Below are positions 26,590 through 30,177 of a DNA stretch of 32,000 bases, piece after piece. The DNA is from Candidatus Heimdallarchaeota archaeon. Lineage in GTDB: Archaea; Asgardarchaeota; Heimdallarchaeia; Heimdallarchaeales; Heimdallarchaeaceae. The stretch is taken from assembly GCA_030668875.1 (NCBI GenBank), contig DAOVER010000014.1, positions 37,911-69,910 on the forward strand. The letters are read 5' to 3'. A model generated the notes under the pieces. That model was not told the DNA's origin. It did no database searches and worked only from the letters and a program-made list of their open reading frames with translations. Position 1 is the first letter of the stretch. Every line of letters begins with the position of its first letter. The translations under genes and the position numbers were made by a program.

Positions 26590-27438
26590 TTGGTTTCTAA
26601 AGATTCTTGTATTCTAATAACGAGTTCAAGTCAAGAAAGAGTAAAAAAAATTGCTCTTTCGGCCTATGATAGGTTAAAAGAAAGAGGATTTAATGTATTT
26701 CTTGATTCCTTTCTTGCAGAAAGGGTGGCTGATGTAGAACCAGTTTGTTCAGAGATAACTGTTGAACTTATTTTGGTTTATGGAGGAGATGGAACCATAT
26801 TGAAGACTTTCAAAAACTGGAAAAACATTCCAATTTTAGGCGTTAATTGTGGAAGAGTTGGATTTCTCAGTGAAATAAAACCTGAAGAGTTAGATGAAGC
26901 CTTAGACAAAATAGAACAAAAAGATTTTTTTACAGAATTTTATTCTGCTTTAGCTGTTTCAACAAAAGCCTTTCCTACCATCTCTGCTGCAAATGATGTT
27001 GTTGTTACTTCAGATAAAATAGGTCAAATTATCTCTCTTAAAGTTCAAGTGAATGACAAATATTTATACACATTAAACGGAGATGGACTAATTATCTCAA
27101 CCTGTGTGGGATCTAGTGCATATTCTCTCTCAGCCGGTGGATCTCTAATAATGCCAACTGTTGATGCTTTTAACCTGGTACCTATCTGTCCTTTTTCTAG
27201 AAGACTGGTATCCCTAGTTATTTCATCAGATGCTCAACTAATTATTACAAATCTGAGTGATTATAGAGCGGGTCATGTAGTAGTTGATGGTGCAACTTAT
27301 TACAGCCTTGGACATGGCGAATCTATAATTGTTCAAAAATCAACTGATAAAATCGGTTTCTTAAGGTTTTCAGATAGTTATGTAAAACGTGTAAGAAACA
27401 AACTATTAAAATACGATCCTGATGATTTTAATGAGTAA
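26590..27438 (+). CDS. nadK: NAD(+) kinase
   Basis: GGDGT, LGVNCGRVGFL, NDVVV, GDGLIIST-VGSSAYSLSAGG and PICPF motifs. TTG start. Confidence 0.94.
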   Translation: MVSKDSCILITSSSQERVKKIALSAYDRLKERGFNVFLDSFLAERVADVEPVCSEITVELILVYGGDGTILKTFKNWKNIPILGVNCGRVGFLSEIKPEELDEALDKIEQKDFFTEFYSALAVSTKAFPTISAANDVVVTSDKIGQIISLKVQVNDKYLYTLNGDGLIISTCVGSSAYSLSAGGSLIMPTVDAFNLVPICPFSRRLVSLVISSDAQLIITNLSDYRAGHVVVDGATYYSLGHGESIIVQKSTDKIGFLRFSDSYVKRVRNKLLKYDPDDFNE

Positions 27439-27955
27439 GGACAAACAAGAAAAAAGGACTTACATAATTGATTCTACTGCAATTATGCATTTTTTTCCAA
27501 ACGACAAAGTTGCAAATGAGGATTCTTATCTTATCATCCCTGATATTCTCAGATCTGAAATAAAATCCTTTCAAGCTAAAGCAGTATTGGAAGTAATGGG
27601 TGATGATCAACGCCTTATTTATACATCACCTTCAGAACACTCGTTAAACACTGTAAAAGAAAAAGCAAAATCATCAGGAGACATTTCCTCTTTATCGGAA
27701 GCAGATATCCATGTTGTTGCTACCGCACTTGATTTTCCTGGTTCCCATGTTATAAGTGATGATAGCGCTGTTCAGAACCTATGTTCTTTCCTAGGAATAC
27801 AAATTGAAACATTCTCCTTTAAAATTAAAACTAGACGGGTTTATTTCTGGAAGTGTATAGGTTGTAGTAACAAATTCAAAGAAAAAATTGTTGTGTGTCC
27901 TGAGTGTGGCAATAAATTAAAACGATTTTATAAGAAAAAGAAAATCAAGGGCTGA
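27431..27955 (+). CDS. nob1: Nob1-like PIN endonuclease with Zn ribbon (SSU rRNA 3' maturation)
   Basis: PIN motifs IIDSTA, EIK, LSEADIHVVATA and SDDSAVQN, followed by CIGC...CPECG. Confidence 0.92.
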   Translation: MSKDKQEKRTYIIDSTAIMHFFPNDKVANEDSYLIIPDILRSEIKSFQAKAVLEVMGDDQRLIYTSPSEHSLNTVKEKAKSSGDISSLSEADIHVVATALDFPGSHVISDDSAVQNLCSFLGIQIETFSFKIKTRRVYFWKCIGCSNKFKEKIVVCPECGNKLKRFYKKKKIKG

Positions 27956-27975: not shown

Positions 27976-29088
27976 CTAAAGTATAGATTCTAATATTTCT
28001 ACAATTGCCATAATCAACTTATCGTTGATTTCTGAATCGCCTAGAGTTACTAAAAAGGATTTTTCGCTATCTTTGAATGGTGGGTATTTCTCGAATGTTT
28101 GAATAATTATTCCTTTACTACATAGTTGTTCATATAACTCCTTAACGTCTTTCTTAAATTGAATTAAGAGGAAGTTTGTATCACTACTATGAACTTTAAG
28201 TCCATTTAACATGCGAAGATGTTCTATAACTCTTTTACGTTCAGCTTTGAAATTATTAATTAGTTCAACAAACCTGTAGGGTGCTTGAAGAATATATTTG
28301 GTTGCTAATAGGTGAATTGGTGGTATTTCTTCTATAATATAGTTCTCCTTTAGAACCTCAATGCTTTTTGCATTTGAAACTAGAAAGGCAGAAGAAAAGG
28401 CTCCTAATCCCCAAGCTTTAGAAAAAGATCTAACAACCGTTAAATTGTCGAAATTTCGCACTTGGTTTACTAATGAATATTTACCGAATTCAACATAGGA
28501 TTCATCTACTATTAGGGGAACCTCTGTCTCTCTAACCAATGCCAGAACATCTTCTCCCTTCAGCTGATTTGCAGTTGGATAATGAGGAGAAGAAAATACA
28601 ATTACTTTTGGATTTTCGCTTTTTATTTGTTCTAAGATGAGATTAATGTTAAGTTCATAATCCGATGTTAGTTCTGTTGTAAGAATGTTTAATTGTTGAT
28701 TTTTAGCAATTTGGTAATAGATGTCTTTATCAGGAATAATTAAAGAAACGGCATCCTTTGGTTTTGTGTTAACTCTAATCATTCTTTGAATTAATTGGTT
28801 ATGTGTTAGCCCAGGGTAGACAGAAGAGGTCTCAACACTTACAAATCTAGAAATCTCTTCAATTAGAGATAAGTAATCAATTGGGTATTGTTCTCTGGGG
28901 TCTATTGATTGAATCTCTTTAATTATGATTTTTTGAATTAAATTAGGTGGTATGAATAAATTATCACCAATACTTAAATCAAGTATCTGATCCAGTGATA
29001 GATTATATTTCTCTGCAACTTCTTGACGAGTTAATAATCGGTCTAGAGCATATTTTGTTTCTGAGATTCTATTAGACAGATGATTCAC
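27976..29088 (-). CDS. HisC-like fold-type I PLP aminotransferase homologue with a degenerate active site
   Basis: DESYVEF and VRSFSKAWGL (PLP lysine) are retained. SPHYPTA, GAFSSAF, GIIIQ and FLVTLG replace SPNNPTG, AGLRLGY, GILVR and LRITIG. Confidence 0.85.
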   Translation of the reverse strand: MNHLSNRISETKYALDRLLTRQEVAEKYNLSLDQILDLSIGDNLFIPPNLIQKIIIKEIQSIDPREQYPIDYLSLIEEISRFVSVETSSVYPGLTHNQLIQRMIRVNTKPKDAVSLIIPDKDIYYQIAKNQQLNILTTELTSDYELNINLILEQIKSENPKVIVFSSPHYPTANQLKGEDVLALVRETEVPLIVDESYVEFGKYSLVNQVRNFDNLTVVRSFSKAWGLGAFSSAFLVSNAKSIEVLKENYIIEEIPPIHLLATKYILQAPYRFVELINNFKAERKRVIEHLRMLNGLKVHSSDTNFLLIQFKKDVKELYEQLCSKGIIIQTFEKYPPFKDSEKSFLVTLGDSEINDKLIMAIVEILESIL

Positions 29089-29286
29089 CCATTTACGATG
29101 GAATTAGTACTGCATCAAGCTTGAATTAAAAAAACCTATTGGTTAGATGTACCTCTACATAAAATCATACATTTCTAACTCCTTTTTGAACTTCAGTTAC
29201 ACAAAAAACAAATAAAGGGGCAACACTAAAAAGAAACAGTAAAAAGCAATAAGGAAAATTAACCTCTGCTAATAAGGGTGGAATTA

Positions 29287-30177
29287 ATGGTTCACAAATT
29301 TACAGTTGAGTTTCCGGAAAGAATATGGAAAGCAATAAAAGATAAGAAAGGGCAAGGCTCAATTAAGGACTTTCTAATCAAACTTATCGAAAAGGAACTA
29401 GAACTCAGAAAAATTAAAGCTTTCATTCTCGCAGGAGGAGAAGGGGCTAGGTTAAAACCTTTAACAGAGGCAATACCAAAAGCAATGATCCCTGTTGGAT
29501 ATAAACCTCTTCTCGAGTACAACTTGGAGCTAATATCAAATAGTGGGATAACCGATGTTGTACTTCTAATTGGAAAACTGGGAGATAGAATAATGAAACA
29601 TTTCGGGCAAAATTGGAATGGACTAGACATAAGTTATGTAAGCGAATCTACTATGCTGGATACTGCTGGTGCAATCCATAATGCAAAAAATTTAGTCTCA
29701 GGAACTTTTCTTGTTATGAATTCCGATATTCTCACAGATGTCAACTTATCACATATTATTGATTTTCATAAGAATCAAAGAAGAGAAAATATCGCTACTA
29801 TGTGTGGAGTGGGTGTTAATGATTATTATCAACTGATGGGAAAAACTAGTGATAAAGGAATCTTTGCAGATTATGGTGTGTTCTATATGAATGACCAAAA
29901 AAATAATAGAATCACCAAATTTGAGGAATCACCAACCAAAGCCCAGCAAAGTGGTTATATTAATACAGGAATATATGTTTTTGAGCCTGATATAATGGAT
30001 TATTTGGTCGATTCTGAAGGAAAATCCATTTCAAGTGATATTATCCCTGCTCTAATTAAAGATAGAAAATTACAAGGATATATATGCCCAAAAAACGTTT
30101 TCTGGATTGATGTAGCTCATCCAGAACGTTGGAGCAAAGCTTGGGATGTCCTATTTTCTGGAGCTATGGAAGTTTAA
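29287..30177 (+). CDS. Sugar-phosphate nucleotidyltransferase with an N-terminal ribbon-helix-helix-like extension
   Basis: ILAGGEGARLKPLTEAIPKAMIPVG, TAGAI, MNSDILTD, INTGIYVF and WIDV motifs, preceded by HKFTVEFPERIWKAIKDKKGQGSIKDFLIKLIEKEL. No left-handed beta-helix tail. Confidence 0.88.
   Translation: MVHKFTVEFPERIWKAIKDKKGQGSIKDFLIKLIEKELELRKIKAFILAGGEGARLKPLTEAIPKAMIPVGYKPLLEYNLELISNSGITDVVLLIGKLGDRIMKHFGQNWNGLDISYVSESTMLDTAGAIHNAKNLVSGTFLVMNSDILTDVNLSHIIDFHKNQRRENIATMCGVGVNDYYQLMGKTSDKGIFADYGVFYMNDQKNNRITKFEESPTKAQQSGYINTGIYVFEPDIMDYLVDSEGKSISSDIIPALIKDRKLQGYICPKNVFWIDVAHPERWSKAWDVLFSGAMEV

What the first reader, a model, noticed from the sequence alone, without database searches (positions are those of the whole stretch)
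29287..30177. Ribbon-helix-helix plus nucleotidyltransferase fusion: possible metabolite-sensing regulator
Seen: about 40 extra N-terminal residues with an alternating beta-strand (HKFTVEF) followed by two helices (PERIWKAIKDKK, SIKDFLIKLIEKEL), fused to an NTP-transferase domain with an intact GxGxRL...PK motif. Established: this strand-helix-helix pattern is the CopG/Arc/MetJ RHH fold. Inference: a trigger enzyme or one-component regulator sensing NTP or sugar-phosphate. It shares a divergent intergenic region with the degenerate aminotransferase, so the two may form a module.
Basis: partly seen in the sequence, partly recalled or inferred. Interest (0 to 1): 0.6.

Follow-up and report, generated by a model that had tools for sequence, protein, structure and literature searches.

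The report
DNA-binding-type domain fused to sugar-nucleotide enzyme
A Heimdall-type Asgard archaeon makes a sugar-nucleotide-forming enzyme with a small ribbon-helix-helix (DNA-binding type) domain at its front end, which probably lets the enzyme double as a gene switch for itself and for the unusual aminotransferase-like gene that always sits beside it.

Summary
Window 29287-30177 (+) encodes a 296-aa protein: a conserved 43-aa N-terminal domain, then an NTP_transferase domain (PF00483, aa 44-279). The start codon is secure.

The N-terminus is very probably a ribbon-helix-helix (RHH). Fold search puts RHH proteins on top. A profile chain links it to RHH families: P=2.7e-8 to a sister clade, which reaches RHH_1 at P=3.5e-4, and P=9e-5 to VapB/DUF217.

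The fusion is in 27 of 30 Heimdallarchaeaceae genomes. It always lies next to a family-specific, degenerate HisC-like gene, in three different gene arrangements.

Sister clades keep the N-terminal motif but often lose catalytic residues, and they sit in other operons. One clade has a conserved inverted repeat over its promoter. A separate, unnamed RHH_1-nucleotidyltransferase family in CPR bacteria and DPANN archaea carries GTATGA repeats upstream (14-fold enriched).

Together this favours an enzyme-regulator hybrid of the PutA/BirA/NikR kind. DNA binding is not shown, and no convincing operator was found in this window; there is only a candidate, AAAAACCTATTGGTT. I found no paper describing this architecture.

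The parts
29287..30177 (+). CDS of the RHH-nucleotidyltransferase fusion (296 aa plus stop)
   Evidence: Full-length orthologues in 27 of 30 genomes of the family.
29287..29415 (+). N-terminal ribbon-helix-helix-like domain, aa 1-43. Strand HKFTVEF, helix 11-20, G-x-G-S turn, helix 26-41. Predicted outward-facing ribbon residues are K4, T6 and E8.
   Evidence: AlphaFold2 models. VIA-align top hits are RHH proteins, Z 4.6-3.4. hhalign to VAPB_antitox P=9e-5. hhalign to sister-clade N-termini P=2.7e-8, and these reach RHH_1 at P=3.5e-4. H3, E8, F9, W14 and F29 are invariant across clades.
29416..30123 (+). Sugar-1-phosphate nucleotidyltransferase domain, aa 44-279. R55, K65, D147, E214 and D275 are kept; the E-K-P lysine is replaced by S215; there is a family-specific insert around aa 178-195.
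   Evidence: Pfam PF00483 E=2.3e-37. Best PDB match 8x7s, E=5.5e-27. Foldseek TM 0.74. Column table.
29274..29281 (+). Shine-Dalgarno-like AAGGGTGG, 5 nt before the ATG
   Evidence: A GGTG-containing element is conserved at the same place in relatives.
29217..29233 (+). Conserved block 2 (GGGGCAACACTAAAAAG), read as the BRE/TATA of the fusion gene, about 54 nt before the ATG
   Evidence: Conserved across genera in the upstream alignment. The promoter role is inferred.
29123..29146 (+). Conserved block 1 (GAATTAAAAAAACCTATTGGTTAG), about 40 nt from the start of the divergent HisC-like gene. It is a candidate operator and/or that gene's promoter.
   Evidence: Present in 17 of 26 family loci. A similar AAAAA-N2-3-TAT(T/C)GGTT stands upstream of the sister-clade operon. 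Only 3-7 sites per genome, mostly inside ORFs.
27976..29088 (-). Divergent neighbour: a HisC-like class I/II aminotransferase-fold protein with the Schiff-base lysine kept but other ligands changed. It is the obligate genomic partner of the fusion gene.
   Evidence: Pfam PF00155. TIGR01141 scores 159.7 bits against a cut-off of 276.55. Adjacency. Family-restricted co-occurrence. K224 is invariant.

Best explanation
The gene encodes an enzyme-regulator hybrid. The first 43 residues form a ribbon-helix-helix domain. As in other RHH proteins, it should pair with a second copy to make a two-stranded ribbon that reads DNA, with K4, T6 and E8 facing outward. The remaining 250 residues are a sugar-1-phosphate nucleotidyltransferase that still has its nucleotide-binding and metal-binding residues.

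The proposed working: occupancy of the transferase domain by NTP, a sugar-phosphate-like substrate or the NDP product changes oligomerisation or domain arrangement. That in turn changes binding of the RHH ribbon in the 198-bp region shared with the HisC-like gene. The protein would thereby tune its own gene and its partner gene.

Shown here: the architecture, the fold-level and profile-level RHH assignment, retention of catalytic residues in this family, and obligate linkage with the HisC-like gene.

Inferred: dimerisation, DNA binding, the operator, the ligand, and the direction of regulation.
For: RHH fold. Of about 48,000 PDB representatives, the best matches to the N-terminal model are almost all RHH DNA-binding domains: CopA_SO, omega, ParD2, PutA 2rbf, NikR, TraM and AmrZ. 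Profile links are A3 to sister-clade N-termini at 95% probability, P=2.7e-8; that clade to Asgard RHH_1 proteins at P=3.5e-4 over 39 columns; and A3 to VAPB_antitox/DUF217 at P=9e-5. DUF217 was assigned to the RHH superfamily by Makarova et al. 2009 (PMC2701414).

Selection on the N-terminus. It is more conserved than the enzyme domain. The outward ribbon positions stay K/R, T/S and E across clades that share only 31% N-terminal identity.

Sensor-like behaviour. Sister clades lose R55, K65, E214 or D275 yet keep the N-terminal motif. Gene context changes between clades: the HisC-like gene here; a polyprenyl synthetase plus GT2 operon; an ECF S-component.

DNA elements. The homologous metagenomic clade has CATA-N6-8-TATG over its TATA box in 24 of 39 loci, against 0.008 expected per 80 bp. 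The analogous RHH_1-transferase family of CPR/DPANN has GTATGA/TCATAC repeats at 7.42 per kb upstream against 0.51 per kb elsewhere.

Module. Adjacency is kept through three arrangements, and the two genes have the same distribution.
Against: No Pfam or PDB sequence match to aa 1-43, and PF01402 does not detect it in the genome. Fold-search Z scores are low (4.6 or less), and the monomer model has no strand.

In this window the only conserved intergenic blocks look like two core promoters. The block-1 motif is missing in one subclade and in the co-directional arrangements, and it defines no regulon. Its enrichment in the sister clade is modest, 6-fold within a single genus.

Operator evidence from other clades is by analogy or homology, not for this protein.

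Sugar nucleotidyltransferases usually oligomerise through extra domains, and this protein lacks one. The RHH could therefore be only a dimerisation device.
Confidence: 0.5

Rival explanations
1. The protein is an ordinary sugar-nucleotide-forming enzyme. Its RHH-derived N-terminus serves only to dimerise or tetramerise the enzyme, replacing the beta-helix or helical oligomerisation domains of other family members. It does not bind DNA.
For: The protein lacks the C-terminal left-handed beta-helix seen in its closest solved relatives, which are 360-400 aa. Catalytic residues are kept in this family. No clear operator was found in this window.
Against: The solvent-facing ribbon residues K/R4, T/S6 and E8 are conserved across clades; a pure dimerisation role does not require this. 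Sister clades lose catalysis but keep the N-terminus. Conserved repeats lie at promoters of the homologous and analogous families.
Confidence: 0.25
2. The N-terminal domain is a protein-protein interaction module of antitoxin type. It docks the transferase onto the HisC-like neighbour, and the two altered enzymes form one complex that makes or senses an unknown metabolite.
For: The best profile match of the N-terminus is to VapB-type antitoxins. The two genes are linked and co-occur without exception in the genomes that have them. Both proteins have altered substrate-phosphate ligands.
Against: In VapB proteins the toxin-binding part is the C-terminal tail, not the RHH (recalled knowledge). 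Sister clades have the same N-terminus without any HisC-like neighbour.
Confidence: 0.1
3. The N-terminal extension is not made: the true start lies downstream and the upstream frame is open by chance.
For: None found.
Against: There is no alternative start codon before the G-loop. Stops lie immediately upstream of the shared ATG in many relatives and a Shine-Dalgarno is conserved. The 43 aa are more conserved than the rest of the protein.
Confidence: 0.01

Closest known systems
PutA (proline utilisation A) of Escherichia coli and Salmonella
   Same: An N-terminal RHH domain is fused to a metabolic enzyme, and the protein represses divergently transcribed genes, its own included. The PutA RHH-DNA complex 2rbf is among the top fold matches (Z 4.2, 42 of 45 residues aligned).
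   Different: The enzyme domains are unrelated (proline and P5C dehydrogenases), PutA is about 1,300 aa, and its switch works by membrane association on flavin reduction (recalled knowledge). Here the enzyme is a 250-aa nucleotidyltransferase and no switch is known.
BirA and NadR (enzyme-repressor hybrids that use nucleotidyl transfer)
   Same: One polypeptide both performs adenylyl or nucleotidyl transfer and represses genes of the same pathway, with the nucleotidylated product or substrate acting as co-regulator. NadR and BirA regulons include vitamin transporters. This recalls the ECF S-component next to the sister clade.
   Different: They use helix-turn-helix DNA-binding domains and unrelated catalytic folds. 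The resemblance is functional and recalled from knowledge, not tested here.
NikR
   Same: An N-terminal RHH is followed by a C-terminal ligand-sensing domain. NikR (1q5v) is among the fold matches (Z 3.8).
   Different: The sensor is an ACT-like nickel-binding tetramerisation domain, not an enzyme fold.
Unnamed RHH_1 + NTP_transferase family of Patescibacteria (CPR) and DPANN archaea (for example P0164, P0331; annotated only as 'sugar phosphate nucleotidyltransferase')
   Same: Same architecture and size (about 277 aa), with the RHH in the same position directly before the G-loop. Repeats lie upstream of the gene.
   Different: Its N-terminus is a canonical RHH_1 type (RLTITL...IRNRSHAIEY; hhalign to RHH_1 at P=4e-6) and is not detectably similar to the Heimdall type (P=0.13). 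The transferase domains are only 31-34% identical. The repeat motif is different (GTATGA). The fusions are probably independent.
VapB antitoxins of the COG1753/DUF217 type (Pfam PF02697)
   Same: This is the best profile match for aa 6-36. It is archaeal, with the same K-T-I-T-V strand and K-G-x-x-S-F/I turn pattern. It belongs to the RHH superfamily according to PMC2701414.
   Different: VapB proteins are stand-alone 70-90 aa proteins with a toxin-binding tail, paired with a PIN toxin gene. Here there is no tail and no VapC partner. The PIN_6 plus zinc-ribbon gene at 27422-27955 looks like the rRNA-processing nuclease Nob1 (Pfam; the Nob1 reading is recalled).
Sugar-1-phosphate nucleotidyltransferases of the GDP-mannose / CugP-type UDP-glucose pyrophosphorylase group (PDB 8x7s, 7x8j, 7d72)
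   Same: Same catalytic fold and signature residues.
   Different: 28% identity or less. There is no C-terminal beta-helix domain, the E-K-P lysine is replaced, there is an extra insert at about aa 178-195, and the RHH is added.

Membership tests
Ribbon-helix-helix superfamily (CopG/Arc/MetJ) | About 45-aa strand-helix-helix unit with an alternating polar/hydrophobic N-terminal strand and a G-x-S/T/N turn that starts helix 2 | tested here: met
   Strand HKFTVEF alternates. Helices at 11-20 and 26-41, with G24-S25 before helix 2. hhalign and MAFFT place it in the same register as RHH_1 proteins.
Ribbon-helix-helix superfamily (CopG/Arc/MetJ) | Fold similarity to solved RHH domains | tested here: met
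   VIA-align against 48,161 chains: most of the top 21 rows are RHH proteins (6iya Z 4.6, 1irq 4.5, 7b22 4.3, 2rbf 4.2). The Z values are low in absolute terms, as expected for 45 residues.
Ribbon-helix-helix superfamily (CopG/Arc/MetJ) | Sequence-profile membership in a curated RHH family | tested here: inconclusive
   No Pfam hit at E up to 10. PF01402 does not find it in the genome. Indirect links only: P=9e-5 to PF02697 members, and P=2.7e-8 followed by P=3.5e-4 via the sister clade to RHH_1.
Ribbon-helix-helix superfamily (CopG/Arc/MetJ) | Obligate intertwined dimer and DNA binding through the two-stranded ribbon | not testable with these tools
   Only single-chain prediction was available, and the monomer model leaves aa 1-10 extended.
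Sugar-1-phosphate nucleotidyltransferase (Pfam PF00483) | Profile match above the curated cut-off and the Rossmann-like fold | tested here: met
   129.3 bits against a cut-off of 21.2. Foldseek E=5e-22, TM 0.74 to 8x7s.
Sugar-1-phosphate nucleotidyltransferase (Pfam PF00483) | Catalytic set: G-x-G-T-R-L arginine, P-K lysine, two metal-binding aspartates, E-K-P lysine (roles recalled from the RmlA literature) | tested here: inconclusive
   R55, K65, D147, E214 and D275 are present and conserved in the family. The E-K-P lysine is S215 and is variable. K218 is invariant and might substitute for it. Activity was not assayed.
Trigger enzymes / enzyme-repressor hybrids (PutA, BirA, NadR type) | Enzyme domain and DNA-binding domain in one polypeptide | tested here: met
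   Architecture shown.
Trigger enzymes / enzyme-repressor hybrids (PutA, BirA, NadR type) | Binds an operator at its own or its pathway's promoter in a ligand-dependent way | not testable with these tools
   Only a candidate motif at 29130-29144. Repeats in related families count as supporting analogy only.
RHH_1-NTP_transferase family of CPR/DPANN | N-terminal RLTITL...IRNRSHAIEY motif and GTATGA repeats upstream | tested here: not met
   The motif is absent from the window protein. hhalign gives P=0.13-0.41. GTATGA/TCATAC occurs 0-1 times upstream in the family loci.
VapBC toxin-antitoxin system | Small antitoxin gene followed by a PIN (VapC) toxin gene in one operon | tested here: not met
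   The domain is fused to a 250-aa enzyme. The neighbours are the HisC-like gene and ribosomal protein L30e/L7Ae.

The most novel reading that the evidence does not exclude
The Heimdall-type proteins, and independently the CPR/DPANN proteins, form a so far undescribed class of one-component transcription factors. In this class a sugar-nucleotidyltransferase fold is the ligand sensor and an RHH is the output. The class spans active enzymes (this window) through to catalytically dead sensors (the sister clades). Different lineages have wired it to different targets: a family-specific HisC-like pseudo-aminotransferase here, a polyprenyl synthetase plus GT2 glycosylation operon in a sister clade, and a vitamin-type ECF transporter component in another.
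Probability: 0.4. Interest if true: 0.65.

Novelty: new variant of a known kind. Interest (0 to 1): 0.55.

Why it matters
Enzyme-regulator hybrids are few, and each characterised case (PutA, BirA, NadR) has shown how metabolism feeds back on transcription.

An RHH-nucleotidyltransferase class would add a new sensor fold. It would give a handle on regulation in Asgard archaea, CPR bacteria and DPANN archaea, where almost no transcription factor has a known ligand or site.

The CPR/DPANN GTATGA repeats and the CATA-N7-TATG palindrome are directly testable operators.

For this window, the strict pairing with a Heimdallarchaeaceae-specific HisC-like protein whose substrate ligands are changed points to an unknown two-gene function. 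It deserves biochemical work.

Tried and rejected
Direct sequence tests on aa 1-43:
- Pfam on 12 N-termini found nothing relevant.
- A profile against PDB sequences found nothing.
- The ESM Atlas gave no usable hit.
- hhalign directly against Asgard RHH_1 proteins aligned in the right register but was not significant (P=0.07).
- hhalign against the CPR N-terminus was not significant (P=0.13). A control, VapB versus RHH_1 (related according to the literature), was also not significant (P=0.02). These shallow profiles therefore have little power.

Other negative results:
- No stand-alone paralogue of the domain exists in the genome.
- Block-1 motif as a regulon marker: only 4-5 sites in the genome, at or below control counts, and most are inside ORFs. 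The other intergenic sites are dnaK/dnaJ and a gelsolin-like gene.
- Repeats within 29060-29300: nothing convincing.
- RNA element in the intergenic region: no Rfam match and folding z = -0.12.

Hypotheses dropped:
- A CobD/CobY (cobamide loop) reading of the gene pair. The neighbour scores higher as HisC than as CobD (159.7 versus 99.1 bits), and the transferase is a PF00483 sugar-phosphate type.
- A VapBC reading. There is no toxin partner.

The literature searches found no paper on an RHH-sugar nucleotidyltransferase fusion.

Full report
**What is there.** Window 29287-30177 (+) encodes a 296-aa protein. Pfam places an NTP_transferase domain (PF00483, E=2.3e-37) at aa 44-279 and nothing on aa 1-43. 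Names attached to near-identical database proteins put the organism in the Asgard family Heimdallarchaeaceae. Neighbouring genes fit this: ribosomal protein L30e/L7Ae, a KH-domain NusA-like gene, RNA polymerase subunits, NAD kinase and a PIN_6 plus zinc-ribbon gene.

**The start is real.**
- No ATG, GTG or TTG lies in frame between the ATG at 29287 and the G-loop.
- In relatives, stop codons lie immediately upstream of the same M-V-H-K start.
- A GGTG Shine-Dalgarno sits 5-9 nt before it.

**The N-terminal domain is conserved and is very probably an RHH.**
- Full-length orthologues (query 1-296, 62-98% identity) occur in 27 of 30 genomes of the family. The three genomes without it are 78-82% complete.
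- Within the family the N-terminal 39 residues are more conserved than the enzyme domain: 78% versus 68% mean pairwise identity.
- AlphaFold2 gives aa 1-10 extended, helix 11-20 and helix 26-41 (pLDDT about 71-88 in the full-length model; 66.7 for the domain alone). This is what a monomeric RHH looks like, because the strand forms only in the dimer.
- The domain model was aligned to 48,161 PDB representatives without a Foldseek prefilter. The top of the list was almost entirely RHH DNA-binding domains: CopA_SO 6iya Z 4.6, omega 1irq 4.5, ParD2 4.3 and PutA 2rbf 4.2, followed by TacA, NikR, TraM, SvtR, PrpA, AmrZ and CdbA. The Z values are low, as they must be for 45 residues, so the weight lies in the enrichment.
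- Direct sequence searches fail, but a chain of profile comparisons holds.
  - The family's N-termini match those of a metagenomic sister clade (KHRTSIEFP...RKRSAFIIEAVREKL) at 95% probability, P=2.7e-8.
  - That clade aligns over 39 columns with bona fide RHH_1 proteins of the same Asgard genomes at P=3.5e-4.
  - The family also matches 29 Asgard VAPB_antitox (PF02697, formerly DUF217/COG1753) proteins at P=9e-5. Makarova et al. assigned that family to the RHH superfamily (PMC2701414).
- The weak outside hits of the N-terminal profile in 399 Asgard genomes are stand-alone PF02697 and RHH_1 proteins.

**The enzyme domain.** It has the sugar-1-phosphate nucleotidyltransferase fold. The best matches are the CugP-type UDP-glucose pyrophosphorylase 8x7s and GDP-mannose pyrophosphorylases, at 25-28% identity. 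R55, K65, D147, E214 and D275 are conserved within the family. The lysine of the usual E-K-P motif is S215 and varies, while K218 is invariant. The roles of these residues are recalled from the RmlA literature. There is no C-terminal beta-helix domain. The genome holds four other PF00483 genes, so this one is a specialised paralogue.

**The module with the neighbour.**
- The HisC-like gene at 27976-29088 (-) is adjacent to the fusion gene in every family member examined, in three arrangements. They are divergent in genera g1, g2 and g3. In G004 the order is fusion gene then HisC-like gene on one strand, 59 bp apart. In the two complete genomes of g5 the order is HisC-like gene then fusion gene. 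The other neighbours change.
- Orthologues of the HisC-like protein were found in 24 of 27 sampled genomes of the family and in none of 52 genomes of six other families of the class. They are missing from exactly the three genomes that lack the fusion gene.
- The protein keeps the Schiff-base lysine (K224, invariant) and the D-E-x-Y motif. It has S-P-H-Y-P in place of S-P-N-N-P and lacks the G-L-R arginine.
- It is the best HisC match in the genome, but no gene reaches the TIGR01141 cut-off.

**Relatives outside the family.**
- A profile search of 1.84 billion representatives found only about ten clusters at 50% identity with a matching N-terminus.
- The Heimdall type has three clades.
  - (a) This family.
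  - (b) A genus of another order of the same class (20 of 22 genomes). There the gene always sits between a polyprenyl synthetase and a 510-aa GT2 glycosyltransferase. R55, K65, E214 and D275 are all replaced.
  - (c) The metagenomic KHRTSIEFP clade. It mostly lacks R55 and is followed by an ECF-transporter S-component-like gene.
- All clades keep H3, E8, F9, W14 and F29, and they keep K/R4 and T/S6. So the N-terminal function is retained where catalysis is lost. The context also varies as it does for transcription factors rather than pathway enzymes.

**DNA elements.**
- In this window only two intergenic blocks are conserved across genera.
  - Block 2 (29217-29233, GGGGCAACACTAAAAAG) fits a BRE/TATA about 54 nt before the ATG.
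  - Block 1 (29123-29146, containing AAAAACCTATTGGTT) lies about 40 nt from the HisC-like start.
- A similar AAAAA-N2-3-TAT(T/C)GGTT stands in the divergent region upstream of the clade (b) operon. That pattern has only 3-7 sites per genome, most of them inside ORFs. Its presence at both loci is therefore unlikely by chance; my own rough estimate is about 1e-3.
- However, block 1 is absent from one subclade and from the co-directional arrangements. Its enrichment in clade (b) is only 6-fold within one genus, and it may simply be the neighbour's promoter.
- Clade (c) has a much clearer element. CATA-N6-8-TATG embraces the TATA box in 24 of 39 loci, against 0.008 expected per 80 bp, often with a further TGCATAAA copy near the start codon.

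**An analogous family.**
- Three representatives (P0164, P0225, P0138) led to a large, unnamed family of about 277-aa proteins in Patescibacteria and in DPANN archaea (Altiarchaeota, Woesearchaeota, Nanoarchaeia, Aenigmatarchaeota). A canonical RHH_1-type N-terminus (RLTITL...IRNRSHAIEY) precedes the same kind of transferase. hhalign links that N-terminus to RHH_1 at P=4e-6.
- GTATGA/TCATAC hexamers stand directly upstream of these genes, as direct repeats about 10 bp apart or as palindromes overlapping -35/-10-like boxes. Their density is 7.42 per kb there and 0.51 per kb in the rest of the loci. 32 of 53 loci have at least one and 16 have two or more.
- This family is not detectably related to the Heimdall type at the N-terminus. 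The RHH-transferase combination therefore probably arose at least twice.
- No solved structure covers such an N-terminus, and the two literature searches found no description of the architecture.

**Reading.**
- Enzyme-regulator hybrid of the PutA/BirA/NadR/NikR kind: about 0.5.
- The RHH is only an oligomerisation device for the enzyme: about 0.25.
- The RHH docks the protein onto the HisC-like partner: about 0.1.
- Start-codon artefact: excluded.

The RHH fold itself I put at about 0.85. The ligand, the operator and the biochemical role of the gene pair remain unknown.

Noticed in passing
L166-L218 (genome-contig loci of Patescibacteria and DPANN archaea); proteins P0164, P0225, P0138, P0331: A large unnamed family of about 277-aa proteins with a canonical RHH_1-type N-terminus (RLTITL...IRNRSHAIEY) fused to NTP_transferase. 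GTATGA/TCATAC repeats lie directly upstream of the gene and are 14-fold enriched. They look like an autoregulatory operator.
   Followed up: partly
L248-L300 (metagenome loci of the KHRTSIEFP clade): The sister clade of the window protein has a conserved inverted repeat, CATA-N6-8-TATG, around its TATA box (24 of 39 loci). An ECF-transporter S-component-like gene lies about 60 bp downstream. The source organisms are unknown, and this clade was not found in 399 Asgard genomes.
   Followed up: partly
L103:5654-9342 and the same region of L104-L106 and L143-L157: In another order of the class, an RHH-transferase-like protein lacking R55, K65, E214 and D275 always lies between a polyprenyl synthetase and a 510-aa GT2 glycosyltransferase. 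In the loci examined (L103-L105), a divergent Rce1-like protease carrying a double zinc ribbon lies on the other side.
   Followed up: partly
window 27976-29088 (-): The HisC-like neighbour is the best match to the hisC model in the whole genome (159 bits), yet no gene reaches the model's cut-off of 276.55. Either histidinol-phosphate transamination is done by a divergent enzyme or the pathway is incomplete. Orthologues are restricted to this family.
   Followed up: partly
window 29144-29157: A near-palindrome, TAGATGTACCTCTA, lies directly after the block-1 motif. It is a perfect 14-bp palindrome (TAGATGTACATCTA) in two close relatives (L007, L008). Other lineages have unrelated inverted repeats at the same place (L009, L023).
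   Followed up: no
window 29818-29871 (aa about 178-195 of the protein): A family-specific insert (DYYQLMGKTSDKGIFADY) in the transferase domain is absent from all other nucleotidyltransferases aligned. It is predicted as two short helices with low confidence.
   Followed up: no
L027:7774-7991 (G006, spacer between the HisC-like gene and the fusion gene): A perfect 9-bp inverted repeat, GAGATAACA...TGTTATCTC, with a T-rich loop lies in the 218-bp spacer of the co-directional arrangement. It could be a terminator-like element or a binding site.
   Followed up: no
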